A stretch of DNA of 31,275 bases, taken from the IMG/VR virus record IMGVR_UViG_3300030060_002742, positions 1 to 31,275 of that record, one strand, 5' to 3'. The translations under genes were made by a program, and so were the position numbers. The DNA is from a virus. A model generated the notes under the pieces. That model worked only from the letters and a program-made list of their open reading frames with translations, had not been told where the DNA came from and did no database searches. This document shows positions 1,109 through 17,226 of the stretch, piece by piece; within the stretch, counting starts at the first letter, position 1, and each line of letters begins with the position of its first letter.

Positions 1109-1110
1109 TC

Positions 1111-1392: not shown

Positions 1393-1407
1393 ATAAAAGG
1401 TGACGTA

Positions 1408-2022: not shown

Positions 2023-4064
2023 TGAGCCGTGTAACTGTATACCAGTCAGATTTTAGTTCAGGGGTTCTTGATCCTCTATTGTTAGGCCGTATTGATTTGG
2101 ACCAATATAAAAAGGGTTTAGAAGAAGCCAAGAATGTAATTGTTTTACCTCAAGGTGGTTTTGAACGTAGACCAGGCACACGCTTCATGCTTGATCTAAC
2201 GTCCCATTTAGGAAGCGGTATTACAGCTACACAAGGGATTAGGCTTATTCCTTTTGAGTTTTCTACCAGTCAGTCTTTCATGCTTGCGTTTGTAAAGAAC
2301 TCTACATCATCAAGTAACAATGTTAGGATGTTTGTCTTTGCGTCAAAGGTACAGATTACAGGGATTAATGGCGGTTCTGATCCGTACCTAGAAGTTTCAA
2401 TGGGAGACATTGACTTATCCAAGGTAAACTTTACGCAATCGGCTGATACTCTTATTCTAGTTCACGAAGATATGTCTCCTATAAGCATTGTAAGAGGAGC
2501 AAGTAATTCTTCTTGGACAGCAGCGACTATTGCTTTAACGATCCCAAAACACGCTTTTACATTAGGTAAGGCTCAAATCTCAGGTAATGTTACACCCTCT
2601 GCTACTTCCGGCTCAATCACCCTAACCTCGGCTGGAAGTAGCTTTACCTCTGCTCATGTTGATCAGTTCTTTACAAGAGATGATGGTTTTGGACGGGTTC
2701 GTATTGTAGAGTTTGTGTCTTCTTCTGAAGTCATAGGTGTTGTAGAAGTACCTTTTTTAAACACGACGGCAATAGCAGATACAGCCCACCATATCGAAAA
2801 TGGTTATGAAGATGCTTTCTCAACATCAAGAGGGTTTCCAAGGTCAGCAACTTTTCACGAAGGTCGGTTGTTTTTTGGTGGCACGAAATCGTTACCTAAT
2901 ACTTTGTTTGGAAGTAGGGTTAATGACTTTTTTAACTTCAAACAATCTCAAGCTCTAGACGACGATGCTTTAAAAGCGAACCTGAGTTCTGACCGCCTAA
3001 ATGCGATTACAAATGTTTTTGCTGCTCGTGACTTACAAATCTTTACAACAGGCGGTGAGTTCTTTGTTCAGCAAACAGAGATTACACCGATTACGCCTAC
3101 CAATCTCACAGTCAAATCAGCCACTAAGAATGGATCAAAAGAAGGTATACGACCTGTTCAAACATCTGATGCAACTTTGTTTATTGATCGTAATGGCGGT
3201 GGCTTGAGAGAGTTTCTCTATAATGATGCACAGTTAAACTATAATGCGAATAACGTATCTTTCTTGGCTAGTCACTTGATCAAGACCCCATTGAAGATGG
3301 CTATCCGTCAATCCACCGATACAGACGAAGGTGATCTTTTATTGATTGCAAATGGTACTGATGGATCTATGGCTTGTTTTTCTATACTTAGACCATTGAA
3401 TGTTGTTGCTGCCAGTGAGTTCGTTACGGATGGTAGTTTCATTGATGTCTCTGTTGATGTTACAGACATTTATACCGTGGTCACACGAACCATAAATTCA
3501 GCAACAAAACACTACGTAGAACTCTTTGATGCTCAAAGAACTACTGATTGCAATTTACAGTTTTTCTCAGGTTCATCCTCTCCAGATGGATCACTTCCCG
3601 GCAGTACTTCTGTCTCTGGCCTTTCTCACTTAGAGGCTAAAACGGTTAAAATCCTTAGAGATGGTTTCGTGTTGTTGGATAAAACCGTGTCGTCAGGTTC
3701 CGTCACAACGGACGTTACTCCATCCGAATACGTAGAGGTCGGACTTGATTACACGGTTGAAGTGAAAACATTACCTTCGGAACCCAACCTGTCCACAGGT
3801 CCAGTTCAATCTAGAAAACGTAGAATTATGGAAGTGACCCCTATTTTAAAAACAACACAAAACGTATCCGTCAATGGCTTTGATGTTCACTTTCGAACCT
3901 TGTCAGATACGCTTGGTTCAACGATTACTGCTTTTACAGGCCGAAAAAGGATTGGCCCTCTTTTAGGTTTTTCAGAAACAGCACAGATTACCTTTTCTCA
4001 ATCTCAACCACTATTCATGACGGTTTTATCCGTAGAATATAAACTAAGTACGGCAGCGAACTAA
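2022..4064 (+). CDS. Tail tubular protein B / nozzle (T7 gp12-like, 680 aa)
   Basis: N-terminus ...FSSGVLDPLLLGRIDLDQYKKGL..N.IVLPQGGFERRPGTRF is typical of podovirus nozzle proteins. Size and position also fit. Confidence 0.7.
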   Translation: MSRVTVYQSDFSSGVLDPLLLGRIDLDQYKKGLEEAKNVIVLPQGGFERRPGTRFMLDLTSHLGSGITATQGIRLIPFEFSTSQSFMLAFVKNSTSSSNNVRMFVFASKVQITGINGGSDPYLEVSMGDIDLSKVNFTQSADTLILVHEDMSPISIVRGASNSSWTAATIALTIPKHAFTLGKAQISGNVTPSATSGSITLTSAGSSFTSAHVDQFFTRDDGFGRVRIVEFVSSSEVIGVVEVPFLNTTAIADTAHHIENGYEDAFSTSRGFPRSATFHEGRLFFGGTKSLPNTLFGSRVNDFFNFKQSQALDDDALKANLSSDRLNAITNVFAARDLQIFTTGGEFFVQQTEITPITPTNLTVKSATKNGSKEGIRPVQTSDATLFIDRNGGGLREFLYNDAQLNYNANNVSFLASHLIKTPLKMAIRQSTDTDEGDLLLIANGTDGSMACFSILRPLNVVAASEFVTDGSFIDVSVDVTDIYTVVTRTINSATKHYVELFDAQRTTDCNLQFFSGSSSPDGSLPGSTSVSGLSHLEAKTVKILRDGFVLLDKTVSSGSVTTDVTPSEYVEVGLDYTVEVKTLPSEPNLSTGPVQSRKRRIMEVTPILKTTQNVSVNGFDVHFRTLSDTLGSTITAFTGRKRIGPLLGFSETAQITFSQSQPLFMTVLSVEYKLSTAAN

Positions 4065-4519
4065 TGGCAACAATTGGAACAATATTTACAGGTGCTGCAC
4101 TAGCTACAAATATGATGGCTGCTCAACAGCAAAGAAGAGCTGGTGCATTAACGCAACAACGATACAATGTTCAGGCAGAGAATGAACGTCTGAAGTATCG
4201 CTTTGAAGCCAATAGAAGTAGACAACAAACTGCACAAATACTTAGAAGAGCCAATGAAACACTTGCTTCAGCCAATGCTGGTTCGTATCGTAGAGGAGTT
4301 GATCCCTCTACATTTAACCTTGCGATCAACACGAGAATTCTTTCTCCGGCAATTACTGATTTAATTCAATCAGATGTCAACACACAACTTGCTGAACTTT
4401 CAGGCGAAGCACAATATGCTGATTTAATTAAGGCCGGGGAAATAGCCAAAGAAGGAGGAATTGCTGCTGGAACTATGACAATGGCAAGTGGTTTTCTTAA
4501 TGCAGCGAGGATTGGCTAA
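4064..4519 (+). CDS. Internal virion/ejection protein, small (151 aa)
   Basis: TAATG-coupled to the nozzle gene. Hydrophobic N- and C-terminal segments with a Gln/Arg-rich centre. Position is equivalent to T7 gp13/14. Confidence 0.5.
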   Translation: MATIGTIFTGAALATNMMAAQQQRRAGALTQQRYNVQAENERLKYRFEANRSRQQTAQILRRANETLASANAGSYRRGVDPSTFNLAINTRILSPAITDLIQSDVNTQLAELSGEAQYADLIKAGEIAKEGGIAAGTMTMASGFLNAARIG

Positions 4520-6420
4520 TGGTAGCTCCTTATAAGCGTACGGGGTTGATGACCGCTAGTTTTCAAGGGGCAAGAGGTGCAGCCTTAACTGAAGGTATTC
4601 GATCAGCTAATGCTTTGACTAGTCAGCTTAGTCAAATGTCTAATTTCTTTTTTAACCAAGCAGCACAACAAAGACGTATTGAAGGTCAAGAGTTTGGAGC
4701 TGCCAATGCACCAACCTTTGAAGAACTATTAGAAGCACAAAAGCAAGGAAAAAATCTTCTTGACTTTGCACCCACAGTATTTGGTCGTTCAGCAAAAGAA
4801 GCAGCATTAGCTACAGTAGAAAATGAAGTTACAGTAGATGCACAGAAAAGATTTGATGAACTTGCTTTCGAAGCCAATAAAAAAATGGTTAGTCCTACTG
4901 TTTTAAGGGATGATTTAGATGCAACTATTTTAGGATACAGTGAGGTTTTACAAGCAACATCCCCTGCCCTTGTAAGAAATTTGTCTGCAAAATTATCTTT
5001 AAATGCTAACAATATATTTGATAGCTATAGAAAATCTTACGCAAGAGCATCAGCACAAAAATCAACTCTTGTAAATGTAGCTGCTCTCAATGTTGCAGAA
5101 AGAAATGTAATAGACGCATGGCAAAACCTCTTGGATGAACCTGATTTAACTGAAGATAAAGTTAAGGAAGAAGAAGTAGTTTTAAAATTAATTTATCAAA
5201 ATGAACTTATGAAAAATGGTTCAAAGACAACAAAGTCTGACATGAATAGAATTGATAAAGCTTTTAGGGATATTGCAAAAGCAAAGGTACAAAACTTTTT
5301 AGTTAATAACAGGGGAAATTTAAGTTTTAATATTGAGGCTATTCGTAAAAAATTTGGTGTTAAAGGCATTGATCCACAAGATGTAACAACACCAACAATA
5401 AATGGAATAATTAATTTTTTAACCGATGCAGAAAAAAATGCAATAATTACAACATCACTTGCAAACTATAGCGCAGAAAACACCCTTATTCAACAACAAG
5501 ATAACGCTTATGAAAATCGTCGAAAAGCTGCAAATGAAAGACTTTTAGTTTCAACCATTAATCTTTTATCAGGAATGCCAGTTGAGTTAGAGAACGGCAC
5601 AAAAATAATTCCTTATGATAATGAAGGTGTTTTAACAGAAGATGCAAGTCTTTTGCTAAATACTATAGCAAATAGGGCTCTAAATAGTGGAGCAGAAAAT
5701 GCAGAACAAATTTATAATGATATAACTACATCTATTAATGATGCAGATGGAAAAGTATTTAGATCACAACCAGGGTTAAAAGCAAGATTAGCACAAAAAA
5801 TAAGCAGTGGAAGTTTTACTTATCAAGACCTAGCAACTAATGCTCCTAATTTAAGTGCAAAAGATTTAGCAGAATTAAAAATACAATTAGATGGCGTTAA
5901 GGATGTAGATTTAGAAATAGCTCTAAATAATGGTGCAGAAGCTTTAAATAATTATGTAAGAGAAACTGAAGCTTTAGCTTTTTTTCATCCAAGGTATGAA
6001 GATCAAAGACTATACTTCAACTACGAAAATTATATGATTAAACAATTACTTAAAGCAAGACGAGGTGGTGAACCTTTTGATGCGGAGTTAGCTAAAGATA
6101 AATGGTTTACAGAATTTAAAGGTGATCTTAAAAAACAATATAAAATAGAGTACACATCTAAATTTAATTCAATAACTAATCAAATTCTTACTGGCTCTGA
6201 CAGTGCAAAAGTACCCAAAAAACAACTAGGTCAAAACTTATCTAATCTATTGGAAAATATAGTTAAAAACACTGAACGACAACAATCAGACTATCAAGCG
6301 ATTTTAAATGAACTAAGAAAGCAAAGGCAAAATAATTTTAACAACAATTCAGTTTTTCAAAAGCAAGGACCACAGGTAATATTTTTATTAGAGAAATTAA
6401 TAGAGAATATGAATGAGTGA
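4519..6420 (+). CDS. Internal virion/ejection protein (633 aa)
   Basis: TAATG-coupled long ORF between the nozzle and fibre genes. No enzymatic motif recognised. The function call is positional only. Confidence 0.5.
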   Translation: MVAPYKRTGLMTASFQGARGAALTEGIRSANALTSQLSQMSNFFFNQAAQQRRIEGQEFGAANAPTFEELLEAQKQGKNLLDFAPTVFGRSAKEAALATVENEVTVDAQKRFDELAFEANKKMVSPTVLRDDLDATILGYSEVLQATSPALVRNLSAKLSLNANNIFDSYRKSYARASAQKSTLVNVAALNVAERNVIDAWQNLLDEPDLTEDKVKEEEVVLKLIYQNELMKNGSKTTKSDMNRIDKAFRDIAKAKVQNFLVNNRGNLSFNIEAIRKKFGVKGIDPQDVTTPTINGIINFLTDAEKNAIITTSLANYSAENTLIQQQDNAYENRRKAANERLLVSTINLLSGMPVELENGTKIIPYDNEGVLTEDASLLLNTIANRALNSGAENAEQIYNDITTSINDADGKVFRSQPGLKARLAQKISSGSFTYQDLATNAPNLSAKDLAELKIQLDGVKDVDLEIALNNGAEALNNYVRETEALAFFHPRYEDQRLYFNYENYMIKQLLKARRGGEPFDAELAKDKWFTEFKGDLKKQYKIEYTSKFNSITNQILTGSDSAKVPKKQLGQNLSNLLENIVKNTERQQSDYQAILNELRKQRQNNFNNNSVFQKQGPQVIFLLEKLIENMNE

Positions 6421-7435
6421 ATTTTACGATGCTATTTCCAAATCAAGATCAAGAAGGCAAAGTGGTCTTGCATTTAATCAAACCTTTACACCAGAAGGTT
6501 CATTCTTTTCGTTAACAAAAGAAGATGCAGCTAGTATAGGTGCAGTACGGTCAGAAGGTTATAAACCAATTCCTACTGAACAAGGTGGTGGTACGGATCG
6601 TGAGTTTATGACAGAAGTAAATTTATCTGATCCAACTACAGATCTTGGTAAGGTATGGATAGAAAATAGCAAAAAACTTTATGAGTTGTCTAAAGGTGAG
6701 AGCCAACAAGAACAAGCAGCAAAGTTTAATACTGATCCTGTACCTGATATGTTATTCAATCCAGCCAAAGGTAGAGATTTAAGACCTAAATCTGTTAAGA
6801 CATTTCAGGAGAATAAGGTCAATAAAGAACCTCAAACAGATCAAGAGTTTGCTCAATGGGGTATTAACCATATTGGTTATATTAACTACAACCTTTCATA
6901 TCTTGGTGTTAAAGCAACAGAAACAGTTTTAAGTAATGACCCAGAAACATCTTTGGCATTGTATCAAATGATGAATATGTACGATGAACTACCAAACTTT
7001 ACTAAAGAAGGCACAATAAGAACTGTAAAAGGTTTAGCTACTGATCCACTTACATACATAGGATTGTCTACGTTGGGTCTTGCTGCACTTGGTAAAAATA
7101 TTGTTGTTAAAATGACAAAGAGTAAACTTAAAAAATCATTAGCTAACAACATCAAAGACAAATACGGTATGGACATTTTACTTGCTATTGAAGGTGGCTC
7201 ATACATGGGTGCTGACGATATTGCAAGACAAACAATAGCTATTAGTGCAGAAGAACAAGAAGGTATTGATGCTGGACAAACAGGAGAAAGTATTGCCACA
7301 GGTGCTGTTCTTGGTCCTGTAGCTGGTCGAGCATTGAACGTAGCTGGTAAAGGGGTATCTGCTGCAACCTCCAAAGCAAAAGAAATAATTAAGAATAGAA
7401 CTGAAAAATCAAAGGAAACTCCTGATGGTTCGTAA
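6413..7435 (+). CDS. Internal virion/ejection protein (340 aa)
   Basis: 8-nt overlap with the preceding gene. The C-terminal half is Gly/Ala-rich and hydrophobic (LSTLGLAALG..., AVLGPVAGRALNVAG), consistent with membrane insertion. Confidence 0.5.
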   Translation: MSEFYDAISKSRSRRQSGLAFNQTFTPEGSFFSLTKEDAASIGAVRSEGYKPIPTEQGGGTDREFMTEVNLSDPTTDLGKVWIENSKKLYELSKGESQQEQAAKFNTDPVPDMLFNPAKGRDLRPKSVKTFQENKVNKEPQTDQEFAQWGINHIGYINYNLSYLGVKATETVLSNDPETSLALYQMMNMYDELPNFTKEGTIRTVKGLATDPLTYIGLSTLGLAALGKNIVVKMTKSKLKKSLANNIKDKYGMDILLAIEGGSYMGADDIARQTIAISAEEQEGIDAGQTGESIATGAVLGPVAGRALNVAGKGVSAATSKAKEIIKNRTEKSKETPDGS

Positions 7436-10400
7436 ACTTATTCAAGAAGGACTTAGAAAAGGTACTGATGCATTTGCCGATACACTTGGAAATGTTGGGA
7501 AAGAAGCCAAAGCTAAAATATATGGTCCTGATGCTCCAGAAGAAGATATAATTGTTTCTAAAAAAACAGGTACTATTACCGTTAAAGAACTTGGTAATTC
7601 TGAAATTGATGCTATAGACAAAGCAATTAAAGGAGCTGGTTTTAAGGGTAATGTTAATTATGGTTTAGATTTTAAAAAACTTGGGACGCTACTTAAAGAT
7701 AGATTTGACGATGGTACGGTAGATGATCCTTTTTATAGTGATTTTGCAGCACAAGAAGTCTTTGGACTTATGCAACACATAAAAGAAAATAATGCTGAAC
7801 TTTTTAAATATTTTAGAAGAGAAAAAAAATCTCTTATCGAACTTGCAGAAAGTGTAAAAGGTACACCTCTTGAAACAACAATAGCTACTTTTGTAGGCAG
7901 AGTACCAGGCAAAGACCCATTGCCACTACCTGAAGATACATTAGCTGGTCTTATAGCAAGTTATAGAATAACAGATGAATTATTAGCCATACAAAAGGAG
8001 CAGTTAAAAACACAGGATCTAGAGAGCAAAAAACTATTATCACAAAGGTTTGCTTTATTAGGTCAAATACAGGTTAGTTTATCTGCTTCTGTTTCTGGAA
8101 ATGTATCTGAATATGCTAGAGGTATGTCTGTTGTCAGAGGTTTTGCAACTATGTCTGATTTTAACATAAATACCTATACTGAAAATTTAAATCGTATAAT
8201 TAAAGACTTACCAGTTAATGCTTTTGAATGGGATCAAATGTCACCAGCAGAGCATAATCTTATGGCTCTTCAATATTCACAATTACACCCTGCTGGTAAA
8301 AAGTTTTTTACTAAAAATCTATATAATTGGATACCAAAAGCAGGTGCAAAAACATACGATACAATTATGGAAATATATGTCAATTCTGTACTTGCAGCAC
8401 TACCAACACACATGGCCAATGTAACAGGTGGAGCTGTATTTCAGGCTATGTTGATTGCTGAAAAAGGTATGGCAGCAAGAATTGGACAGGTTCGACAGGG
8501 TATAGGTAGAGCTGTTGGAATGAATATGAATAACGCTGATAGAGTGCTTGTCGGTGAAGCTATGGCAGAAATACATGGTGTTCAAATGTCTTTAATGAAC
8601 GCATTTAAGGTTTTAGGTAATTCTTTTATCACAGGAGAAAGGTCAGATTTTCAATCTAAAATTGATTTAAGAGATTTACAAGCTATTGGTAATGAAGAAA
8701 GTATCCCTGCAATATTAAAAAATCTAGGTCGAAAAGATTTATTTTTAAATGTTATTGATATTGTAGGAATTATGACAAGAATGCCAGGTCGTTTTTTAGC
8801 ATCTGAAGATGAGTTTTTTAAGGTGCTGTCTAGAGAAAGAGTTAAATACAGGGAAGCTTTTAGAAGAGCATCATTAGTACAACAAGAAATACTTAAAGCG
8901 AACTCAAGTGGCATATACTTAGGCAATAGAGAACAAGTACAAGAATTAGCTAACAATAAATTTTCTGAGGTATATGAGGATATTTTATTGAACACTAGTC
9001 AAAACAAACATGAAGATGTTTATCAAATGATGAAAGACGAAGCATTAGAAAGTACATTTCAAAATCCATTAGAGGGAATACAGGCTTCATTTGCTAAAAT
9101 AGCTAATATACCAGCACTGAAACCATTTTTCTTTTTGTTTGTTAAAACACCTGTCAACTTATTTAATCAATCTGCTAACAGGGCATTTCCGTTTTCTCCT
9201 GTTTATAAAGCAATAACCAAAGGACCAGGTGCTGTTTCTGGTAAAGAATACGATGAAGCCTTGGCAAAGCTTGCGACAGGTTGGGGTATTTTTGTTACAA
9301 TGCAAAGTATTATGCATTCTGGTATTGCTGACAACATAGTAAGGTTTGTTTCTGGTGCTGGATATGAAGAAGATTATAAATTAAAAGGAACACTTGGTCC
9401 TAATTTTAAAGGTAAACTACGTCAAGCAGATACAGGTAAACAACCATACGCTATAGAAATGAAAAACGCAGACGGCAATTGGGAAAGCATTTCATTACAA
9501 AGACTTGATCCTATATCTGGTACTATAGCTATGATGATAGATACCGCCTTAATGCTACAAAATATGCCAGACGATGAAGGTATGTTATCTGCTGTTACAG
9601 ATGCTTCATTAGCCACTATATTTGCACTTGCAGAATTTTCATCTTCACAAACCTATTTACAAGGTATGTCTGATATTATGCGTGAATTTCAAAATCCTAC
9701 TGGTGAACAAGGAAAAGCCTTTGAAAGATTGGGAAGGTTTTTTGGTGGTAAGCTTGTTGATATAGGAACAAATGTAACTGGTTCTGCTATGGGTCGTATG
9801 TCCTTTGGTCTTGGTAATGCAGCAAATGAATATTTAGGTTATCCAGTTATAGGAGCTACATCTTTTACAGGTATGATGGAAAGAATGAAAGACCCAAGAG
9901 GTAGCAATACTGAGTTAACAGAAATGCAAATGGGTAATTACAATAATTATAATGATATGCCATCGTTTATGGTTGGTGCGTTTAAAGCTTTAAATCGTGC
10001 AAAAGCAAGAGACCCTGTATTCTCTGCATCTGTAGAACCAAGTTTAGATTATTGGGGTAATAATTTAATGCAAGGTGAAGGTAGAGAATTTACTATAGAT
10101 ACACCCTTTGGAAAAGAAGTTGTTGTTAGACCAAGAATGGTAGTAGGTTTAGGTAAAAAACAAATTATAAAACCAAGTATAATTGAAGATGAACTCCACA
10201 GAATAACAATGGCTGGCGGTCCTGTCCTTGAACCTCGTCATAGAAAATACATAGAGATAGGTGGAGAATATATAAACCTGACAGCAGAAGAACAAACCGC
10301 ATACAACAGGACTTTTAATTCTATAGATGAAAATGGAAGATTACCTGGTATGGTTGGATATAATCCAGAACTTACTGTCCAGAAAAAAATGGAAAGAATA

Positions 10401-10622
10401 ATTGGTACAGAAGCTTATCAAGATAATGACAGCATTGAAGATCAATATAATGAATTAACAGCACCAATATCAGATCATAAAAGTCTTACAAAACAAGTAC
10501 TTACTAACAGAAAATTTTATGGAATAAATATTAACGAAATTGGGTCAGAAAGGTTGTTTAAGATATTTGATACGAAAGAAGAAGACAAAGCATTAGAAAT
10601 GTTGAAAAAAAGCGTACGATAG
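7425..10622 (+). CDS. Large internal virion/ejection protein (1065 aa; positional analogue of T7 gp16)
   Basis: Largest non-fibre ORF, overlapping the previous gene by 11 nt and lying immediately before the tail fibre. I could not recognise a transglycosylase motif. Confidence 0.5.
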   Translation: MVRKLIQEGLRKGTDAFADTLGNVGKEAKAKIYGPDAPEEDIIVSKKTGTITVKELGNSEIDAIDKAIKGAGFKGNVNYGLDFKKLGTLLKDRFDDGTVDDPFYSDFAAQEVFGLMQHIKENNAELFKYFRREKKSLIELAESVKGTPLETTIATFVGRVPGKDPLPLPEDTLAGLIASYRITDELLAIQKEQLKTQDLESKKLLSQRFALLGQIQVSLSASVSGNVSEYARGMSVVRGFATMSDFNINTYTENLNRIIKDLPVNAFEWDQMSPAEHNLMALQYSQLHPAGKKFFTKNLYNWIPKAGAKTYDTIMEIYVNSVLAALPTHMANVTGGAVFQAMLIAEKGMAARIGQVRQGIGRAVGMNMNNADRVLVGEAMAEIHGVQMSLMNAFKVLGNSFITGERSDFQSKIDLRDLQAIGNEESIPAILKNLGRKDLFLNVIDIVGIMTRMPGRFLASEDEFFKVLSRERVKYREAFRRASLVQQEILKANSSGIYLGNREQVQELANNKFSEVYEDILLNTSQNKHEDVYQMMKDEALESTFQNPLEGIQASFAKIANIPALKPFFFLFVKTPVNLFNQSANRAFPFSPVYKAITKGPGAVSGKEYDEALAKLATGWGIFVTMQSIMHSGIADNIVRFVSGAGYEEDYKLKGTLGPNFKGKLRQADTGKQPYAIEMKNADGNWESISLQRLDPISGTIAMMIDTALMLQNMPDDEGMLSAVTDASLATIFALAEFSSSQTYLQGMSDIMREFQNPTGEQGKAFERLGRFFGGKLVDIGTNVTGSAMGRMSFGLGNAANEYLGYPVIGATSFTGMMERMKDPRGSNTELTEMQMGNYNNYNDMPSFMVGAFKALNRAKARDPVFSASVEPSLDYWGNNLMQGEGREFTIDTPFGKEVVVRPRMVVGLGKKQIIKPSIIEDELHRITMAGGPVLEPRHRKYIEIGGEYINLTAEEQTAYNRTFNSIDENGRLPGMVGYNPELTVQKKMERIIGTEAYQDNDSIEDQYNELTAPISDHKSLTKQVLTNRKFYGININEIGSERLFKIFDTKEEDKALEMLKKSVR

Positions 10623-10656
10623 TGTATGTTCACAAACTAGAAGTGGGGATTAATTT

Positions 10657-13600
10657 ATGACCGATATAGTAGATGTAGCTCGACGGGTACAGTATACAGG
10701 CAATGGCTCTGCCGGACCGTTCAGTTTTAGCTTCCAGGTCAATGCGACAACGGAGATAAAAGTTTTTGTTGGAACAACTCAAAAAACAATCACAACGCAT
10801 TACACTGTTAGCCTTACATCTTCAGGTGCAGGTTCAGTATCGTTTACATCTGGAAACTTTCCAACAAGTTCAGAAACGATTACGATTGTTTCAAGTGTTT
10901 CCCTAGCAAGATCCTCAGTCTACACTACAGGTGGCCCCTTGACAGCAAGTGCGCTTGAAGCAGACTTTGACACGAACATAATGATCCTTCAGCAATCTTC
11001 CCAAAAGGTTGATCGAGCGTTGGCTGCTCCAGAGTTCGATGCCACAACCATTGACATGACCCTGCCTGAAAAAGACAGCCGAAAGGGTAAGATACTTGGT
11101 TTCAATGCAACGTCAGGTAATCCTGAGGTCGTAGGAGAAAATGCAACAGTTACAACGATATTTAATGCTATTGGTGATAATACACTTACTTTAACAGGCG
11201 TTATTACTGGTGGTTCCTTAGTTGCAGATAACATTACTATTGATGGAACAGAGATAGATTTAAGTAGTGGAGATTTAACCATTGATGTTGCTGGAGATAT
11301 ATATCTTGATGCTGATGGTGGAGATATTTTTCTTAGAGATGCTGGAGCAACTTATGGATCACTAACCAACAATAGTGGTAATTTAATAATTAAATCTGGC
11401 ACAACAACATCTGCCACGTTTACTGGAGCTAATGTAGCTTTTGCTGGCAATGTAACTGTTGATGGTAATCTTGATGTAACTGGATCATTTGATATGTCAG
11501 ATGCTAATATAACAAACATAGGTAGCATTGCATTAGATACAATTACAAGTGATGGCAACACTATTACTCTGGATGCAACTACAGACATTGTTTTAGATGC
11601 TGGTGGTGCAGACGTTACTTTAAAAGATGATGGTTCAACTTTTGGTTCTTTAACTAATAACTCTGGTGAATTGCAAATTAAATCAGGTTCTACCCCAACA
11701 GCAGCCATAGAGTTTTCTGGTGCAAATACTACTTTAAAAGGAAACCTTACTGTTGATGGTAACTTATCAATGGGAACAGATAGTATTACAAATGTAACTA
11801 CGATTGCAGCTAATTCTTATTTAAATAATTCTGGTGATTTAACATTAGATAGTTCTTCAAATATTGTTTTGGATGCAGATGGTTCTCATATATTCCTTAA
11901 AAACAATGGCACAGAGTTTGGTGCTTTAGTTGATAGCAGTGGGCAATTACACATAAGGTCAGGATCAGATGGAACAAGTAGTTCTAATACAGCTATTGAA
12001 CTAAGTAATGGAAACGTAACTTTTTCCAACACGGTAACTATTTCATCTACTAATCATTTGCGTTTTGGTGATAGTGGGACTTACATTCATCAATCAGCAG
12101 ACGGTGTTCTTGATCTTGTTTCAGACAATGAAATAGAAATAAATGCCACAACGATAGATATGAATGGTGCTGTTGACATTAGCGGAAATCTTTCTATTGG
12201 GGGTAATCTTGATGTGACAGGCTCATTTGATATGAGTGATGCCAACATTACAAACATAGGATCTATTGCTCTTGATACGATTACAAATGATGGGAGTGAT
12301 ATTACACTTGATAGCTCTGGCACAATTATTCTTGATGCTGATAATTCTGGTCAAATTGAATTTAAAGACAATGGTGTTTCCTACGGTTCTGTAAATTCGA
12401 GTGGTGGTACAGGAATGAACTTGCTTGTCAGTCAAGCAGATGAAAACTTTGAAATTTATGGAACCGATGGTTCAACTGTTATCAAAGCTTTAGAAATATC
12501 TATGGCTAACGATGGTGCTGCACTCTTTAAATCTAGTGTTACGGCAACGTCTTTCGTTGGTGCGCTGACAGGAAATGTCTCTGGAAACGTGTCAGGAAAT
12601 GCTGAAACAGTGACGATCACTGCAAATAATTCTGCTAATGAAACCGTATATCCTGTATTTGTAGATGGTGCTACTGGTACTCAAGGATTAGAAAGCGATA
12701 CTGGTCTTTCATATAATCCAAGTACAGGTCTTTTAAGCACAGACAGTTTAATTACTGGAGCGAGTACGTTCACTGGAAATGTCTCTCACAATGACAATGT
12801 GAAAGCTATTTTTGGAACAGCTGGAGATTTAGAAATATATCATGATTCAGCAGGTTCTTACATAGATGACACTGGCACTGGTAGATTATTTTTGAGGGGT
12901 TCTGATAGAGTTCAAATACAAAAATATAATAGCGACAGTGGTTTAGTAGAAGATGGGATTACATTTTTAGAAGATGGGGCAGTTAAAATTTACCACGACA
13001 ACGCTAAGAAACTAGAAACAACATCTAGTGGTGTTACTGTTACTGGCTCTGTTACTGTTGATAATATCGTCGCAAGTAGTGATCTTACAATTGATGCAGG
13101 TGGGGGTGATATTTTATTAAAAGATGATGGCGCACTTGTTGGAACACTTGGTGGATTTGCATCAAATAATGTAGTTATAAAATCAGAAGTATCCGATGGT
13201 GATGTTATTATTCAAGGAAATGATGGTGGTTCAGGAATTACTGCCCTTACACTTGATATGTCACAAGCAGGGGAAGCTGATTTTAATAGCGCAATAAAAG
13301 TTGGGGGTGGTATTGTTGCTCACCAAACTAATAGAGGTGTTTTAGAATACAGTAGTAACAATTTTATGATGAGAGCCTATGGTGCTAGTTCTGGAGATGG
13401 TTTTATTACTTTCAAAACTGGTGGTGGTGGAGGCTCTACAGATACAGAAGCACTACGTCTTGACAGCTCTCAAAATGCCACGTTTGCTGGCAGCGTCACC
13501 GCTAACAATATCGTTGCAAGTGGAGCTGCTTCGTCTTTCAACTCTGGTGGCACAAACGTAGTAGCGTCCTTTACATCTACAGATGCCACAAGCGCAATTC

Positions 13601-14196
13601 AGCTTGTTGATAATACAGGCAATGTTGAGTTAAGTGCATTAGGAAACACGTTTCAAGTGCAACCTGGAGGGGGTTCAGCAGCACTTATTGTTAAGGCAGA
13701 TGCTGTTTTAGTGGGCATGACCTCTGATAATTACTTGGCTGCTGACGATGGTATTCAGTTAGTTCCAACTGGAAGTATTAGGATTGGAAGCAGTGGAACT
13801 TCAGCTAAAAACGTAATGTCTTTTGTGAACAACACAGGTGGGACACCTGCAGAAGTTGGTGTTATCCAAACTAGCGGTTCATCAACAACCTATGCTACGT
13901 CGTCAGATTACAGGCTTAAAGAAAACGTAGTAACAGATTGGGATGCTACATCAAGACTTAAAGAACTCAAGCCAAGTAGATTTAATTTTAAGATAGACAA
14001 AGATAAAACAGTAGATGGGTTCTTAGCACATGAGGTTTCAAGTATTGTGCCAGAGGCTGTTACAGGAACAAAAGATGAAGTAGATGAAGATGGTAATGCA
14101 GTTATGCAAGGCATAGACCAAAGCAAACTAGTGCCATTACTAGTGAAGACAATACAGGAACTTGAAGCAAGAATAGCTAAATTAGAAGGAGGTTAG
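10657..14196 (+). CDS. Tail fibre/spike with repeat-built shaft and C-terminal peptidase-S74 intramolecular chaperone (1179 aa)
   Basis: The N-terminus (RVQYTGNGSAGPFSFSF...ALEADFD.N...LQQ) resembles podovirus fibre virion-attachment domains. At least five repeats of about 70 aa carry the pattern D..LDA.GG.I.LKD.G..FG.L.N.SG.L.IKSG. The C-terminus SSDYRLKENV...FLAHEV...QELEARIAKLE is the classic S74 autoproteolytic chaperone signature. Confidence 0.85.
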   Translation: MTDIVDVARRVQYTGNGSAGPFSFSFQVNATTEIKVFVGTTQKTITTHYTVSLTSSGAGSVSFTSGNFPTSSETITIVSSVSLARSSVYTTGGPLTASALEADFDTNIMILQQSSQKVDRALAAPEFDATTIDMTLPEKDSRKGKILGFNATSGNPEVVGENATVTTIFNAIGDNTLTLTGVITGGSLVADNITIDGTEIDLSSGDLTIDVAGDIYLDADGGDIFLRDAGATYGSLTNNSGNLIIKSGTTTSATFTGANVAFAGNVTVDGNLDVTGSFDMSDANITNIGSIALDTITSDGNTITLDATTDIVLDAGGADVTLKDDGSTFGSLTNNSGELQIKSGSTPTAAIEFSGANTTLKGNLTVDGNLSMGTDSITNVTTIAANSYLNNSGDLTLDSSSNIVLDADGSHIFLKNNGTEFGALVDSSGQLHIRSGSDGTSSSNTAIELSNGNVTFSNTVTISSTNHLRFGDSGTYIHQSADGVLDLVSDNEIEINATTIDMNGAVDISGNLSIGGNLDVTGSFDMSDANITNIGSIALDTITNDGSDITLDSSGTIILDADNSGQIEFKDNGVSYGSVNSSGGTGMNLLVSQADENFEIYGTDGSTVIKALEISMANDGAALFKSSVTATSFVGALTGNVSGNVSGNAETVTITANNSANETVYPVFVDGATGTQGLESDTGLSYNPSTGLLSTDSLITGASTFTGNVSHNDNVKAIFGTAGDLEIYHDSAGSYIDDTGTGRLFLRGSDRVQIQKYNSDSGLVEDGITFLEDGAVKIYHDNAKKLETTSSGVTVTGSVTVDNIVASSDLTIDAGGGDILLKDDGALVGTLGGFASNNVVIKSEVSDGDVIIQGNDGGSGITALTLDMSQAGEADFNSAIKVGGGIVAHQTNRGVLEYSSNNFMMRAYGASSGDGFITFKTGGGGGSTDTEALRLDSSQNATFAGSVTANNIVASGAASSFNSGGTNVVASFTSTDATSAIQLVDNTGNVELSALGNTFQVQPGGGSAALIVKADAVLVGMTSDNYLAADDGIQLVPTGSIRIGSSGTSAKNVMSFVNNTGGTPAEVGVIQTSGSSTTYATSSDYRLKENVVTDWDATSRLKELKPSRFNFKIDKDKTVDGFLAHEVSSIVPEAVTGTKDEVDEDGNAVMQGIDQSKLVPLLVKTIQELEARIAKLEGG

Positions 14197-14578: not shown

Positions 14579-14736
14579 ACCTTCGAGACGTTTTTAAGGA
14601 TTTAGAAGTTCATAAGGCTGTCAGTGAAGAACGCTGGACAGAAATTCTTAGTCGTGTAAAACGTCTAGAGATGGTACTTGTGGGGGCATCTGGAACAACG
14701 ATCGTTTTGCTTATAAGTCTGGTTGTCAAAACGTAA
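14575..14736 (+). CDS. 53-aa tail-anchored membrane protein (GTG start)
   Basis: MNLRDVFKDLEVHKAVSEERWTEILSRVKRLEMVLVGASGTTIVLLISLVVKT has a C-terminal TM segment. It fills an otherwise empty gap, and its stop overlaps the next ATG (TAATG). Confidence 0.45.
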   Translation: MNLRDVFKDLEVHKAVSEERWTEILSRVKRLEMVLVGASGTTIVLLISLVVKT

Positions 14737-15227
14737 TGTTTGCTGAAGTTCTTACAGGGCTATCGCTTGTCAAGGCAAGTGTGTCCTACATTAAAGACAC
14801 CATTAGCACCGCCAAAGATATGACTGAGATTGTTGATGCTGTCGATCAACTGCTTGATGGCGAACAACAAATTAATAAAGATAGATCTAAAAAAGATGGT
14901 ATAAGTTTCAAGGATCAGCTTGGTATTAAAGGAGTGGCTCACGAAGTCATTGATGCAAAGCTTGCTGCGGAAATGCGATATGAAATGTCCGTGTTGATAG
15001 ACCAAAGGTTTGGGCATGGAACTTTTCAAGAGATTGTAAATCTTAGAGCAAAGCGCATACAGGAAGCAAAAGAAGAAGCAAAAAAAATAGCTAAAATTAA
15101 GAAACAAAAGAAAGACGAGTTGCTTGAAATAATTGCTGTAGTTCTTGCGATTTTGATTGTTGGTGGATTACTTTTGACCGTTTTTGCGACCTGGCTCAAA
15201 GCAGAACCAGAGGTGTCTAAAATCTAG
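14736..15227 (+). CDS. Tail-anchored membrane protein with Lys/Glu-rich coiled region (163 aa)
   Basis: The single hydrophobic segment LLEIIAVVLAILIVGGLLLTVFATW lies near the C-terminus. It sits in the lysis region, but its function is unknown. Confidence 0.55.
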   Translation: MFAEVLTGLSLVKASVSYIKDTISTAKDMTEIVDAVDQLLDGEQQINKDRSKKDGISFKDQLGIKGVAHEVIDAKLAAEMRYEMSVLIDQRFGHGTFQEIVNLRAKRIQEAKEEAKKIAKIKKQKKDELLEIIAVVLAILIVGGLLLTVFATWLKAEPEVSKI

Positions 15228-15329: not shown

Positions 15330-15674
15330 ATGAAAAAGACATTAGAAAAAGATAGTGCATGGTCAAAAGCGGATACTAATGGAGATAATGTAGTTTCGGA
15401 TGCCGAACTAGATGCAGCTTTGGCAAGAGAAGAAAAACGTATCCGTATGGATAACAACGATAAGAAAGAAGATCAGATAAGATTACTGATTTGGTTTCAA
15501 TCTATTTGCACGGTAGCGTTTGTGATTGTCCTGGTTATTCCAGAAGTCATTCCTGAAAGCAGACTTAACCACTTGGCAGGGATTTCCAGCACATTTATCA
15601 TTAGTAACTTAGGTATTATTGGTAGCTATATCGGTGCTTCAGCGTGGACGAAAGCTAAAGAAAATGGCAAGTGA
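15330..15674 (+). CDS. Two-TM membrane protein with N-terminal canonical EF-hand Ca-binding loop (114 aa)
   Basis: I chose the internal ATG at 15330 (MKKTLEKD...). DTNGDNVVSDAEL (15372-15410) satisfies every position of the PROSITE EF-hand loop pattern. Two hydrophobic helices follow. Confidence 0.55.
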   Translation: MKKTLEKDSAWSKADTNGDNVVSDAELDAALAREEKRIRMDNNDKKEDQIRLLIWFQSICTVAFVIVLVIPEVIPESRLNHLAGISSTFIISNLGIIGSYIGASAWTKAKENGK

Positions 15675-15927
15675 TCCAAGATTAAAAAAAGTTGGCGTAT
15701 CCGGATACAATAAACCAAAGCGTACCCCTAATCATCCTACAAAATCCCATGTGGTTGTTGCTAAGAAAGGCAATCAAATCAAGACCATACGATATGGTCA
15801 GCAAGGAGTTACAGGTGACAAAGGCGATACGGCACGATCTCGTAGTTTTAAAAAGCGTCATGCAAAAAACATAAAGAAAGGTCTTATGTCGGCTGCTTAT
15901 TGGGCGAACAGGACAAAATGGAGTTAA
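15664..15927 (+). CDS. Basic 87-aa protein (KPKRTPNHPTKSHVV...SAAYWANRTKW)
   Basis: The ATG at 15664 overlaps the previous stop by 11 nt. From memory the sequence resembles a widespread viral family of unknown function. This is not verifiable here. Confidence 0.55.
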   Translation: MASDPRLKKVGVSGYNKPKRTPNHPTKSHVVVAKKGNQIKTIRYGQQGVTGDKGDTARSRSFKKRHAKNIKKGLMSAAYWANRTKWS

Positions 15928-15931: not shown

Positions 15932-16351
15932 ATGAGTTTATTGAGTAGTTTAATTCAGCCTGTTTCTAAGTTGTTGGACAAAGCCATACCAGATACGGAC
16001 CTCAAAAGAAAGCTTAGTCATGAGATAGCTATGATGGCAGAGAAGTCTGCTGCCGAAGCTGTTAAAGGACAGTTACAAGCAAACATAGAACAAGCCAAGC
16101 ACCCTTCTCTTTTTGTTTCAGGCGCACGCCCAGCGATCATGTGGATTTGCGCTCTAGGACTATTAACTCAGTTTTTTTTAATGCCGATTGCTGAATGGAT
16201 AACTGCCTTATGGTATCCAACTGTGGAACTTCCAAACCTATCTACGTCAGAACTTACAGGTCTAACCCTTTCATTGTTAGGTTTATCAGGCATGAGATCA
16301 TGGGAAAAAAGCAAAGGTGTTGCCAGAGAAAATATGAAAGGAACAAAGTAA
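15932..16351 (+). CDS. Holin-like membrane protein (139 aa; resembles the 3-TM GTA-type holin family)
   Basis: Amphipathic N-terminus followed by GARPAIMWICALGLLTQFFLMPI and further hydrophobic segments. It lies 420 nt upstream of the endolysin gene. Confidence 0.55.
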   Translation: MSLLSSLIQPVSKLLDKAIPDTDLKRKLSHEIAMMAEKSAAEAVKGQLQANIEQAKHPSLFVSGARPAIMWICALGLLTQFFLMPIAEWITALWYPTVELPNLSTSELTGLTLSLLGLSGMRSWEKSKGVARENMKGTK

Positions 16352-16503
16352 TGGCTGAACTAACCAAAAGACAAAAGACAGCTCTTTCAAGACACGCCAA
16401 ACATCATACTGCAAAGCACATGACCTCTATGAAAAAAGACATGAGAGCAGGTAAAACTTTTACACAAGCACATAAAAACGCAATGAAGAAAGTGGGGAAA
16501 TAA
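16351..16503 (+). CDS. 50-aa basic mini-protein MAELTKRQKTALSRHAKHH...AHKNAMKKVGK
   Basis: TAATG overlap with the holin stop. 14 of 50 residues are K/R, with 5 His. Below the ORF-track cut-off when started at this ATG. Confidence 0.5.
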   Translation: MAELTKRQKTALSRHAKHHTAKHMTSMKKDMRAGKTFTQAHKNAMKKVGK

Positions 16504-16619
16504 TGCCATTTAAAAAGTATTCGCCAAAGCAAAAGAAACTCGCAAGGGTAGCAGCACCTAGAAATAAAATTACAGGGGCAGATTTTAAAAAGTTAAAAAA
16601 AATGAAAGGTAAAAAATAA
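16503..16619 (+). CDS. 38-aa basic mini-protein MPFKKYSPKQKKLARVAAPRNKITGADFKKLKKMKGKK
   Basis: TAATG overlap on both sides. 15 of 38 residues are K/R and one is acidic. Confidence 0.45.
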   Translation: MPFKKYSPKQKKLARVAAPRNKITGADFKKLKKMKGKK

Positions 16620-16771
16620 TGTCACTTTATAGAAATATACACGCAAAAAGAAAAAGAATAGCAGCAGGTAGTGGAGAGAAGATGCGTAAACCAGGGTCAA
16701 AGGGTGCGCCAACAGCAGCTAACTTTCGTAAAGCAGCAAAGACAGCAAAGAAACCTAAAAAGAAAGGTTAG
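16619..16771 (+). CDS. 50-aa basic mini-protein MSLYRNIHAKRKRIAAGSGEKMRKPGSKGAPT...KKPKKKG
   Basis: TAATG overlap with the previous ORF. It ends 2 nt before the endolysin ATG. 17 of 50 residues are K/R and one is acidic. Confidence 0.5.
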   Translation: MSLYRNIHAKRKRIAAGSGEKMRKPGSKGAPTAANFRKAAKTAKKPKKKG

Positions 16772-16773: not shown

Positions 16774-17226
16774 ATGACTTTTAAATTATCAGCCAACAGC
16801 ATGAGCAAAATGACAGGCATCAAGAATGAATTACATACGATAGTTTGTGAAGCCATACGCCTAACTAAAGTAGACTTTGGTGTTATCTGTGGTCTTAGAA
16901 CTCAAGAAGAACAGGATGCCCTTTTGGCAAAAGGTGCAACACAGACAAAAACGAGTAAGCACATGACAGGAGATGCCGTAGACCTCATGGCGTACGTTGG
17001 TTCGAGAGCAAGTTGGGAACTAAATTTGTATGATGATATTGCAGATGCCATGAAAAAAGCAGCTAAAAATAATAATGTAAAGATACGTTGGGGTGCAGCT
17101 TGGCACATAGATAACTTTGCAGAATATGAAGGTACTGCCGAGGATGCTATGAACGATTACATTGACCTAAGAAGAAGCCAAGGGCGTAGACCGTTCATAG
17201 ATGGTCCTCATTTTGAATTAAATTAA
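16774..17226 (+). CDS. Endolysin, peptidase M15 (VanY/L-Ala-D-Glu peptidase-like, 150 aa)
   Basis: Motifs GLRTQEEQDAL...KGA..T..SKHMTGDAVDL...IRWGAAW...DGPHFEL match the zinc-binding H/D/H architecture of M15 phage peptidases. Confidence 0.85.
   Translation: MTFKLSANSMSKMTGIKNELHTIVCEAIRLTKVDFGVICGLRTQEEQDALLAKGATQTKTSKHMTGDAVDLMAYVGSRASWELNLYDDIADAMKKAAKNNNVKIRWGAAWHIDNFAEYEGTAEDAMNDYIDLRRSQGRRPFIDGPHFELN

What the first reader, a model, noticed from the sequence alone, without database searches (positions are those of the whole stretch)
15330..15674. Canonical EF-hand calcium-binding loop on a two-TM phage membrane protein in the lysis region
DTNGDNVVSDAEL (nt 15372-15410) satisfies all 13 positions of the PROSITE EF-hand loop pattern as I recall it: D-x-[DNS]-x-[DENSTG]-[DNQGHRK]-x-[LIVMC]-[DENQSTAGC]-x-x-[DE]-[LIVMFYW]. 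An acidic helix and two hydrophobic helices follow. A Ca-sensing membrane protein next to a holin could link lysis timing or superinfection exclusion to divalent-cation status. I am not aware of a described EF-hand lysis regulator.
Basis: partly seen in the sequence, partly recalled or inferred. Interest (0 to 1): 0.6.

Follow-up and report, generated by a model that had tools for sequence, protein, structure and literature searches.

The report
EF-hand two-helix phage lysis-cassette protein
A small two-pass membrane protein encoded beside this marine phage's cell-bursting genes carries a textbook calcium-binding loop, the best-conserved feature of a very large unnamed phage family, so calcium may help time host lysis, but nothing has been tested.

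Summary
Residues 15-27 fit every position of the PROSITE EF-hand pattern, and this is the only match in the six-frame translation of the window.

The loop is not chance. The protein belongs to a family with at least 252 clusters at 50% identity and over 590 IMG/VR loci. In 225 unique members the calcium-ligand positions are the most conserved columns: D 100% at loop position 1, D 97% at 5, E 98% at 12.

Charge distribution predicts N-in/C-in topology, which puts the EF-hand in the cytoplasm. An AlphaFold2 model (pLDDT 81) shows its exiting helix running unbroken into TM1.

Family members sit inside lysis cassettes built on six endolysin types. This includes cultured phages CRP-1, CRP-207, CRP-701, CRP-810 and Limnohabitans DC31. 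In T4-like pelagimyophages the gene lies in the baseplate cluster instead.

Pfam, PHROGs and the ESM Atlas give no function, and I found no paper.

My best reading, at about 45%, is a holin- or antiholin-type lysis regulator that senses cytoplasmic calcium. Calcium binding and any lysis role are untested.

Earlier reports of this scan reached the same reading for this family on other genomes.

The parts
15330..15674 (+). Gene for the 114-aa EF-hand two-TM protein (P0001), here called FAM
   Evidence: Translation. 18 close homologues. 252 cluster representatives.
15342..15371 (+). Entering (E) helix region of the EF-hand, residues 5-14. Conserved L5, S9 and aromatic 11.
   Evidence: AF2 helix 10-14. 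Column statistics: L5 91%, S9 91%, Y/F/W 83% at position 11.
15372..15410 (+). EF-hand loop plus the following hydrophobic residue (residues 15-27)
   Evidence: PS00018 match. Pfam EF-hand_1 E 0.017, below the cut-off. Family conservation: D100 / D,N100 / D97 / G83 / VIL98 / ST94 / E98. The family profile hits calmodulin and other EF-hand chains in the PDB at E about 1e-6.
15399..15482 (+). Exiting (F) helix continuing as a charged stalk (residues 24-51). Includes the juxtamembrane motif N42-x-D44-K-K-x-D48-x-x-R51.
   Evidence: AF2 models one continuous helix over residues 24-69. The motif is conserved even in relatives that lack the EF loop.
15483..15539 (+). TM helix 1 (residues 52-70), with W55 conserved in 95% of members
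   Evidence: Hydropathy, AF2, column statistics.
15540..15581 (+). Short, net-acidic connecting turn (residues 71-84), predicted periplasmic
   Evidence: Family mean of 0.94 K/R against 1.86 D/E in this segment. AF2 places the turn at residues 70-75.
15582..15647 (+). TM helix 2 (residues 85-106), with a face of small residues: S/A92, G/A95, A/G98, G102, A105
   Evidence: Hydropathy, AF2 helix 76-113, column statistics.
15648..15671 (+). Short basic C-terminal tail (residues 107-114), predicted cytoplasmic
   Evidence: Family mean of 2.54 K/R against 0.71 D/E.
14736..15227 (+). Upstream gene P0002 (163 aa, C-terminal TM, phrog_32327). A recurring but not obligatory partner of FAM.
   Evidence: phrog_32327 E 7e-7. 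A homologue lies in 17 of 166 FAM loci, mostly at gene position -1. Also seen in CRP-1 gp58 and DC31 _00113.
15664..15927 (+). Downstream basic 87-aa protein (phrog_7595). Its start overlaps the end of FAM by 11 nt.
   Evidence: phrog_7595 E 7e-32. The same gene order occurs in Roseobacter phage CRP-207, gp72 then gp71.
15932..16351 (+). Holin, three-TM GTA type
   Evidence: Pfam GTA_holin_3TM E 7e-13. phrog_3427 'holin' E 4e-29.
16774..17226 (+). Endolysin, M15 peptidase
   Evidence: Pfam Peptidase_M15_4 E 1e-5. phrog_465 'endolysin' E 4e-47.

Best explanation
P0001 is an inner-membrane protein of a complete 31-kb marine podovirus genome that has direct terminal repeats. It is a helical hairpin with both ends in the cytoplasm. 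The 50-residue N-terminal domain is a single canonical EF-hand. Its exiting helix continues through a charged stalk straight into TM1. A lone EF-hand normally pairs with a second one, so the protein probably works as a dimer or higher oligomer held together by EF-hand pairing on the cytoplasmic face. I propose that it is a holin-class or antiholin-class component of the lysis cassette and that it reads cytoplasmic free calcium. That level is kept very low against millimolar calcium outside. It should rise when the proton-motive force fails or the first membrane lesions form. Calcium binding would re-orient the E and F helices. Through the rigid F-helix/TM1 rod, this would change how the TM hairpins pack with each other or with the neighbouring three-TM holin. 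The result would sharpen or set the moment of lysis. Shown: the loop, its conservation, the architecture and the gene neighbourhoods. Inferred: topology, dimerisation, calcium binding, the lysis role and the direction of the effect.
For: Loop and chance: the loop fits PS00018 and is unique in the window.

Family size: 252 cluster representatives at E<=1e-3 and more than 590 IMG/VR loci. Only 9 hits appear in 185,579 species genomes, all of them MAG contigs. The ESM Atlas shows neighbouring clusters that are 98-100% viral and all 'hypothetical'.

Conservation: the calcium-ligand columns carry the highest information in the protein. Loop position 1 is D 100%, position 5 is D 97% and position 12 is E 98%. 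The loop survives at about 30% identity in CRP-207, Melnitz, HTVC008M, CRP-1, CRP-701, CRP-810 and DC31.

EF-hand identity: the family profile hits calmodulin and other EF-hand structures. EF-hand Pfam models hit 31 of 59 members. The best local Foldseek superpositions are EF-hands, at rmsd 1.2 A over 40 columns.

Topology: the connecting loop is net acidic, the C-tail is basic, and the N-domain carries about 8 K/R.

Model: AF2 pLDDT is 80.9 with one continuous helix over residues 24-69.

Lysis context:
- FAM lies directly upstream of the holin, which is followed by the M15 endolysin, in close relatives L003-L016.
- The order endolysin, i-spanin, o-spanin, FAM occurs in L060. Endolysin, i-spanin, FAM occurs in L069.
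- GH24, GH108 and Hydrolase_2 endolysins lie nearby in L019, L017 and L045.
- Deposited annotations show the same placement in CRP-1, CRP-701, CRP-810, DC31 and CRP-207.
- 38 of 99 loci with full flanks have a recognised lysis gene within 2.5 kb. This is a lower bound.

Weak holin signal: Phage_holin_3_6 is the only recurring non-EF Pfam signal, in 6 of 59 members, best E 3.4e-4, below the cut-off.
Against: No experiment exists for any member.

In the window itself a separate holin is present, and FAM is separated from it by another gene. FAM is therefore not needed to explain hole formation here.

The commonest IMG/VR context, about 42 loci plus HTVC008M and Melnitz, is a T4-like baseplate hub cluster. 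Another common context is DNA metabolism. Neither has a recognised lysis gene nearby.

Among the 149 best cluster representatives, roughly one in five shows no EF loop. At least 14 of these are full-length proteins that keep the stalk motif and both TM helices. The core function therefore does not strictly need calcium.

The Pfam EF-hand scores are below the gathering cut-off (15.1 against 25.4 bits).

The N-terminal 30 residues of the model have only moderate confidence (pLDDT 61-76).

The topology is a prediction from charge counts.
Confidence: 0.45

Rival explanations
1. The protein is a holin or holin partner, but the EF-hand is only a structural dimerisation module. It is always metal-loaded (Ca or Mg) and senses nothing.
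For: Single EF-hands must pair to fold, so a role in oligomerisation follows from the architecture alone (established knowledge of EF-hand pairing). Full-length EF-less relatives keep the rest of the protein, as expected if other N-termini can replace the module. The lysis-cassette placement is the same as for the main reading.
Against: All calcium-ligand positions, including the bidentate Glu at loop position 12 (98%), are kept more strictly than anything else in the protein. A bare dimer interface would not need this. In a low-calcium cytoplasm (topology), a canonical loop would mostly be empty unless calcium rises.
Confidence: 0.2
2. The protein has no lysis role. It is a membrane protein for another task. 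One option is superinfection exclusion, as with T4 Imm, a small two-TM protein. Another is a membrane anchor for tail or baseplate assembly. Either could use calcium influx as a cue.
For: In T4-like pelagimyophages the gene sits between the baseplate-hub assembly gene and a tape-measure-like gene. In the window it follows the tail-fibre module. 61 of 99 fully flanked loci show no recognised lysis gene within 2.5 kb.
Against: The gene abuts or overlaps holin, endolysin or spanin genes in many unrelated phages with six different endolysin types. This includes cassettes far from structural genes, such as L060, L069 and CRP-1. T4-type phages scatter their lysis genes among late genes, so the myovirus context is not informative (established knowledge of T4, where the holin gene t follows tail-fibre genes). 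Exclusion genes are usually patchy early morons, not broadly conserved genes within late operons.
Confidence: 0.2
3. The EF-hand match is a chance feature of an Asp/Asn-rich segment and the protein does not bind metal.
For: The Pfam score is below the cut-off. The shuffled N-terminus gives a match 0.13% of the time.
Against: The loop is conserved with canonical ligands in about 95% of 225 unique family members and across 30%-identity relatives from podo- and myoviruses. The profile hits true EF-hand structures.
Confidence: 0.02

Closest known systems
Class II holins and pinholins (for example S21 68 of phage 21; recalled from general knowledge, sequence not compared here)
   Same: Both are small phage inner-membrane proteins with two TM helices and predicted N-in/C-in topology. 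TM2 has a face of small residues and the C-terminal tail is basic. Both are encoded in lysis cassettes next to endolysin and spanin genes.
   Different: FAM has a 50-residue cytoplasmic EF-hand domain that no described holin has. In this window and in many relatives a separate three-TM holin is present. No significant sequence match to any holin family was found; there are only sub-threshold Phage_holin_3_6 hits. Hole formation is untested.
Antiholins and holin regulators (lambda S107, T4 RI and RIII, P1 LydB; general knowledge)
   Same: Both are small proteins encoded next to the holin and thought to set lysis timing by sensing a cell-state signal. Known signals are membrane potential for S107 and superinfection for RI.
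   Different: The proposed signal (cytoplasmic calcium) and the sensor (an EF-hand) are not known for any antiholin. No homology was found. Interaction with the holin is untested.
Canonical EF-hand proteins (calmodulin, Entamoeba CaBP1, polcalcins)
   Same: The 12-residue loop has ligands at positions 1, 3, 5, 9 and 12, G at 6 in most family members, and a hydrophobic residue at 8. Flanking helices are present. There are profile hits to these structures and local superposition at 1.2 A.
   Different: Each chain has only one EF-hand, and its exiting helix is fused directly to a transmembrane helix. Pairing would have to occur between chains, as in domain-swapped polcalcins and EhCaBP1 assemblies.
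EF-hand-like calcium sites in phage endolysins (CHAP domains of staphylococcal lysins; found in the literature search, abstracts only)
   Same: Calcium-binding loops occur in phage lysis proteins.
   Different: Those are soluble enzymes in which the site supports catalysis. This protein is a non-enzymatic membrane hairpin.

Membership tests
EF-hand (PROSITE PS00018; Pfam EF-hand_1/5/6/7) | 12-residue loop with oxygen ligands at positions 1, 3, 5, 9 and 12, a hydrophobic residue at 8 and a hydrophobic residue at 13 | tested here: met
   Regex match at residues 15-27. The family columns are canonical.
EF-hand (PROSITE PS00018; Pfam EF-hand_1/5/6/7) | Helix-loop-helix: the loop is flanked by an entering and an exiting helix | tested here: met
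   AF2 gives helix 10-14, a loop, then a helix from residue 24, with moderate pLDDT of 61-76. Local superposition on EhCaBP1 and calmodulin EF-hands gives rmsd 1.2-1.4 A over 36-40 columns, with non-significant E-values.
EF-hand (PROSITE PS00018; Pfam EF-hand_1/5/6/7) | Score above the Pfam gathering cut-off | tested here: not met
   15.1 bits against 25.4 for P0001. The best E-value among 59 members is 9.5e-6. A single short repeat rarely reaches the cut-off, so this weighs little.
EF-hand (PROSITE PS00018; Pfam EF-hand_1/5/6/7) | EF-hands occur in pairs within a domain | tested here: not met
   P0001 has only one loop, and typical members also carry one at the N-terminus. Pairing would need a second chain. 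The multimer could not be modelled with the tools on hand.
EF-hand (PROSITE PS00018; Pfam EF-hand_1/5/6/7) | Binds calcium | not testable with these tools
   Needs ITC, 45Ca overlay or Tb3+ luminescence on the N-terminal domain.
Class II holin | Small protein with two TM helices, N-in/C-in | tested here: met
   114 aa. Two hydrophobic helices. Charge counts favour N-in/C-in. The topology is a prediction only.
Class II holin | Encoded next to the endolysin in the lysis cassette | tested here: met
   In the window it is on the same strand, 257 nt upstream of the holin and 1.1 kb upstream of the endolysin. It is directly adjacent in CRP-1, CRP-207, CRP-701, CRP-810, L003-L016 and L060.
Class II holin | Sequence membership of a described holin family | tested here: inconclusive
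   There are no holin hits above the cut-offs. Phage_holin_3_6 is sub-threshold in 6 of 59 members. PHROGs gives only phrog_27150, of unknown function.
Class II holin | Forms lethal membrane holes that release or activate the endolysin | not testable with these tools
   Needs expression and lysis assays.
Antiholin | Encoded beside or within the holin gene | tested here: met
   FAM lies directly upstream of the three-TM holin in L003-L016, CRP-701 and CRP-810. In the window it is one gene away.
Antiholin | Binds the holin and delays or blocks triggering | not testable with these tools
   Needs co-expression, two-hybrid or pull-down experiments.
T4 Imm-type superinfection exclusion protein | Small two-TM inner-membrane protein expressed early, which blocks DNA entry | tested here: inconclusive
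   The size and TM count fit. The gene lies in late, same-strand structural and lysis operons rather than in early regions. No sequence comparison with Imm was made.

The most novel reading that the evidence does not exclude
Calcium acts as the second messenger of membrane failure in phage lysis. In this reading a very widespread family of marine and freshwater phage membrane proteins uses a cytoplasmic EF-hand to detect calcium entry. It converts that signal into all-or-none holin triggering, or into release from an antiholin block. In pelagimyophages such as HTVC008M and Melnitz, where I saw no holin annotated near the gene, this protein could be the missing holin.
Probability: 0.3. Interest if true: 0.8.

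Novelty: new variant of a known kind. Interest (0 to 1): 0.62.

Why it matters
Lysis timing sets phage burst size and therefore carbon release from the ocean's dominant bacteria. Hosts of cultured carriers include SAR11, Roseobacter and OM43. Holins are known to be triggered by loss of membrane potential. No lysis protein is known to read calcium, and EF-hand signalling in bacteria and phages is poorly understood. If this family couples lysis to calcium, it would add a new input to the lysis clock. It would also give a function to a gene found in hundreds of uncultured phage lineages. Finally, it would offer a compact, natural calcium-gated membrane switch. Cultivable carriers (CRP-1, CRP-701, CRP-810, DC31) make the idea directly testable.

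Tried and rejected
Neighbourhoods came from IMG/VR loci instead, using my own simple ORF calling.

Failed locus scans:
- The EF-less protein P0058 found no IMG/VR locus. I therefore could not examine the genomic contexts of EF-less relatives.

Structure searches:
- Foldseek against the PDB gave nothing significant (best E 3.7).
- VIA-align against 48,161 chains gave only generic helical hairpins and bundles, all with Z<8. This says nothing for or against a holin fold.

Family libraries:
- PF07332 has no match in the window.
- I did not obtain a PF07332 alignment, so no profile-profile test of the weak holin signal was run.
- PHROGs gives only weak hits to phrog_27150, of unknown function.

Signals and literature:
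- Promoter and terminator scans around the cassette did not exceed shuffled expectation.
- Literature searches for EF-hand with holin, lysis cassette or pelagiphage found only endolysin EF-hand-like sites and unrelated mentions.

Method notes:
- A first regex-based loop census was too strict and picked up some false segments. I replaced it with hmmalign column counts.

Full report
**The observation**

The window is a complete 31,275-bp virus record with direct terminal repeats.
- Structural genes run from 254 to 14196 on the + strand: major head, tail proteins, an internal virion protein and a 1179-aa tail fibre.
- They are followed on the same strand by a tight run of small genes that ends with a holin and an endolysin.
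- A repressor-like gene, RecT, RecE-like exonuclease and a serine recombinase lie on the opposite strand. Replication, terminase and portal genes come after that.

The ORF in question runs from ATG 15330 to the stop at 15672-15674 and gives 114 residues. Residues 15-27 (nt 15372-15410) fit the full PROSITE PS00018 pattern. This is the only match in the six-frame translation of the window.

Shuffles of the N-terminal 51 residues match 0.13% of the time. A single hit is therefore unusual but not decisive by itself. Two hydrophobic helices follow, at residues 52-70 and about 85-106.

**The loop is conserved**

A first search found 18 metagenomic homologues at 59-96% identity, and all complete ones keep the loop. 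These are too close to be informative.

A profile search of 1.84 billion cluster representatives gave 252 clusters at E<=1e-3 and 41 at E<=1e-10. Most are 100-125 aa and share one plan:
- an N-terminal K-K-L-x-x-x-S-x-aromatic stretch
- a D-x-D/N-G-D-G-x-V/I-S/T-D-x-E-L loop
- a charged stalk with the motif E-N-x-D-K-K-x-D-x-x-R
- W-F/A at the start of TM1
- a short turn
- TM2

In 225 unique sequences aligned to the family model, the loop columns are as follows:

| Loop position | Residues |
|---|---|
| 1 | D 100% |
| 3 | D 63%, N 37% |
| 5 | D 97% |
| 6 | G 83% (N 10%, as in this window) |
| 8 | V/I/L 98% |
| 9 | T/S 94% |
| 12 | E 98% |

Apart from K3, these columns carry the highest information content in the protein.

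Relatives at about 30% identity in cultured phages keep the loop. These are Roseobacter phages CRP-207, CRP-1, CRP-701 and CRP-810, Pelagibacter myophage HTVC008M, Methylophilales myophage Melnitz and freshwater Limnohabitans phage DC31.

Other EF-hand evidence:
- The family profile hits calmodulin and other solved EF-hand proteins at E about 1e-6, summed over their repeats.
- Pfam EF-hand models hit 31 of 59 members, none shown to reach a gathering cut-off.

The loop is therefore a genuine, selected EF-hand. Roughly one in five of the 149 best representatives shows no loop, and at least 14 of these are full-length proteins that keep the stalk motif and both TM helices. So the EF-hand is an add-on to a two-TM core, although a nearly universal one. 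In the IMG/VR loci, 151 of 152 family genes have the loop, and the exception is cut off by a contig end.

**Architecture and topology**

Across 35 diverse members, charged residues are distributed as follows:

| Segment | Mean K/R | Mean D/E |
|---|---|---|
| Connecting loop | 0.94 | 1.86 |
| C-terminal tail | 2.54 | 0.71 |
| N-terminal domain | about 8 | about 12 |

By the positive-inside rule this favours N-in/C-in. A 50-residue N-tail with that many positive charges is also unlikely to be exported without a signal peptide. That second point is inference from established topology rules. The EF-hand is therefore predicted to face the cytoplasm.

AlphaFold2 with a 59-sequence alignment gives mean pLDDT 80.9. 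The model has a short helix at residues 10-14, the loop, one unbroken helix over 24-69, a turn at 70-75 and a second long helix over 76-113. The exiting helix of the EF-hand is thus continuous with TM1. Confidence is only moderate (61-76) over the first 30 residues.

TM2 has a face of small residues at positions 92, 95, 98, 102 and 105. Such a pattern is typical of tightly packed membrane helices.

Each chain has only one EF-hand. From general knowledge, EF-hands fold in pairs, so pairing between chains is expected. I could not model multimers.

**Genomic context**

In the window the gene order on the + strand is:
1. tail fibre
2. DUF7936 protein
3. a 53-aa protein with a C-terminal TM helix
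4. P0002 (163 aa, C-terminal TM helix, phrog_32327)
5. FAM
6. an 87-aa basic protein (phrog_7595), whose start overlaps FAM by 11 nt
7. a three-TM holin
8. three tiny basic proteins
9. the M15 endolysin

Contexts elsewhere that include lysis genes:
- In the closest IMG/VR relatives the order is tail fibre, FAM, holin, M15 endolysin, with FAM directly before the holin.
- L060 has a phrog_181 endolysin, an Rz-like i-spanin, an o-spanin and then FAM. L069 has the endolysin and i-spanin followed by FAM, and by my own reading of the ORFs L073 has an endolysin and i-spanin upstream of FAM.
- L066 has two ORFs that read as an i-spanin and an o-spanin (my reading, not scanned), then a P0002-like gene and FAM.
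- L019, L017 and L045 have GH24, GH108 and Hydrolase_2 endolysins close by.
- Deposited annotations of cultured phages agree. CRP-701 and CRP-810 have FAM, 'holin family protein', then a glycoside hydrolase. CRP-1 has FAM then 'putative endolysin', followed by a protein with a lipobox and a C-terminal TM helix. CRP-207 has 'putative lysozyme' then FAM. DC31 has a P0002-like gene, FAM, an i-spanin-like protein and an L-alanyl-D-glutamate peptidase.

The same small gene therefore sits inside lysis cassettes built on six different endolysin types in unrelated phage groups. Of 99 loci with at least 2.5 kb on both sides, 38 have a recognised lysis gene within 2.5 kb. This is a lower bound, because my reference set was small.

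**Contexts that do not fit**

The single commonest IMG/VR context, about 42 loci, is that of T4-like pelagimyophages. HTVC008M and Melnitz share it. There the order is baseplate hub, hub-assembly catalyst, FAM, then a tape-measure-like protein. A second common context has an exonuclease and a deoxyribonucleotidase upstream and an unknown 260-aa protein downstream.

T4-type phages scatter their lysis genes among late genes. This is general knowledge: the T4 holin gene follows tail-fibre genes. These contexts are therefore neutral rather than contrary. They do leave room for a non-lysis role.

The P0002-like gene accompanies FAM in 17 of 166 loci, mostly immediately upstream. It is a recurrent partner, not an obligatory one.

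**What is known about the family**

Pfam gives only sub-threshold EF-hand hits. The one recurring non-EF signal is Phage_holin_3_6, also sub-threshold, in 6 of 59 members with best E 3.4e-4. PHROGs gives weak hits to phrog_27150, of unknown function. The ESM Atlas places the protein among viral 'hypothetical protein' clusters.

Only nine hits occur in 185,579 species genomes, all on MAG contigs. The family is therefore viral rather than cellular.

Full-text searches found EF-hand-like calcium sites in endolysins but no EF-hand holin, antiholin or similar membrane protein. The library lacks most subscription journals, so this is not proof of absence.

This scan has flagged the same family on several other genomes, and earlier follow-up reports reached essentially the same reading. 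I formed my reading before seeing them.

**Mechanism**

The best-supported picture is a cytoplasm-facing EF-hand rigidly coupled to a TM hairpin, encoded with the lysis genes.

From general knowledge, bacterial cytoplasmic free calcium is sub-micromolar, while seawater holds about 10 mM. Any loss of proton-motive force or first membrane lesion should therefore raise cytoplasmic calcium sharply. A canonical loop with a bidentate Glu at position 12 is suited to detect that rise.

I propose that calcium binding changes EF-hand pairing or helix orientation. Through the continuous helix, this would change the packing of the TM hairpins with each other (holin-like) or with the three-TM holin (antiholin-like). 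The effect would be to make triggering sharper or to time it.

The steps stand as follows:
- Shown: the loop, its conservation, the architecture and the neighbourhoods.
- Inferred: topology, dimerisation, metal binding, the lysis role and the sign of the effect.

I give this reading about 45%. The rivals are:
- a purely structural EF-hand on a holin-class protein (about 20%)
- a non-lysis membrane role such as superinfection exclusion or tail-assembly anchoring (about 20%)
- a chance motif (about 2%)

The remainder is unassigned.

**Verdict**

The protein is a new variant of a known kind: a holin-class lysis-cassette membrane protein bearing an EF-hand. It belongs to a very large, unnamed and uncharacterised phage family. 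Interest is moderate to high because cultivable carriers make the calcium-lysis link directly testable.

Noticed in passing
window:14736-15227 (+); also L163:1754-2215, L165:1954-2436, L066:4317-4799, L017:3249-3671: This is a roughly 160-aa protein (phrog_32327, unknown function) with an amphipathic N-terminus, a long charged helix and a C-terminal TM helix. It repeatedly sits just upstream of the EF-hand gene, in 17 of 166 loci. It may be a second unnamed lysis-cassette component.
   Followed up: partly
window:14575-14736 (+): This is a 53-aa ORF with a coiled-coil-like N-terminus and a C-terminal TM helix, abutting P0002. Its layout resembles XhlA-type holin-associated proteins. A 90-aa protein in L060 (3090-3362) with the conserved L-W-I-Y-T TM segment gave a sub-threshold XhlA hit.
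   Followed up: no
window:14198-17226 (+): No spanin was recognisable in this phage's cassette: no N-terminal-TM coiled-coil protein and no lipobox protein. Relatives such as L060, L066 and CRP-1 do have i/o-spanin or u-spanin-like genes.
   Followed up: partly
window:15664-15927 and 16345-16771 (+): Four small, very basic proteins (phrog_7595, phrog_31838, an unscanned 38-aa ORF, and phrog_16028) are interleaved with the holin and endolysin. The phrog_7595 gene follows the EF-hand gene in CRP-207 as well.
   Followed up: partly
window:14001-14189 (+): The 3' end of the tail-fibre gene is 77-78% identical at the DNA level to several Pelagibacter podophages. The endolysin resembles those of Roseobacter phages. 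This hints at a SAR11 or other marine alphaproteobacterial host.
   Followed up: no
window:17218-20993 (-): The minus-strand block holds a small repressor-like protein, RecT, a RecE-like exonuclease and a serine recombinase/integrase. This suggests that the 31-kb podovirus with terminal repeats is temperate.
   Followed up: no
L069:5398-8460 and L073:5428-8972: In two IMG/VR phages the EF-hand gene is followed by what read, from their N-terminal sequences only, as a J-domain (DnaJ-like) protein, in L073 a peptide-deformylase-like protein, and a roughly 750-aa Clp-like ATPase. This is an unusual chaperone/protease block next to a lysis cassette.
   Followed up: no
L163:3261-3602 (CRP-1 gp54): This 113-aa protein has an N-terminal lipobox-like signal and a C-terminal TM helix, directly after the endolysin. 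The layout matches a unimolecular spanin, but the deposited annotation is 'hypothetical'.
   Followed up: no
L002:6967-8327 and L166:4984-5258: Both Melnitz and HTVC008M carry an adenylate/guanylate cyclase gene a few kb from the EF-hand gene.
   Followed up: no
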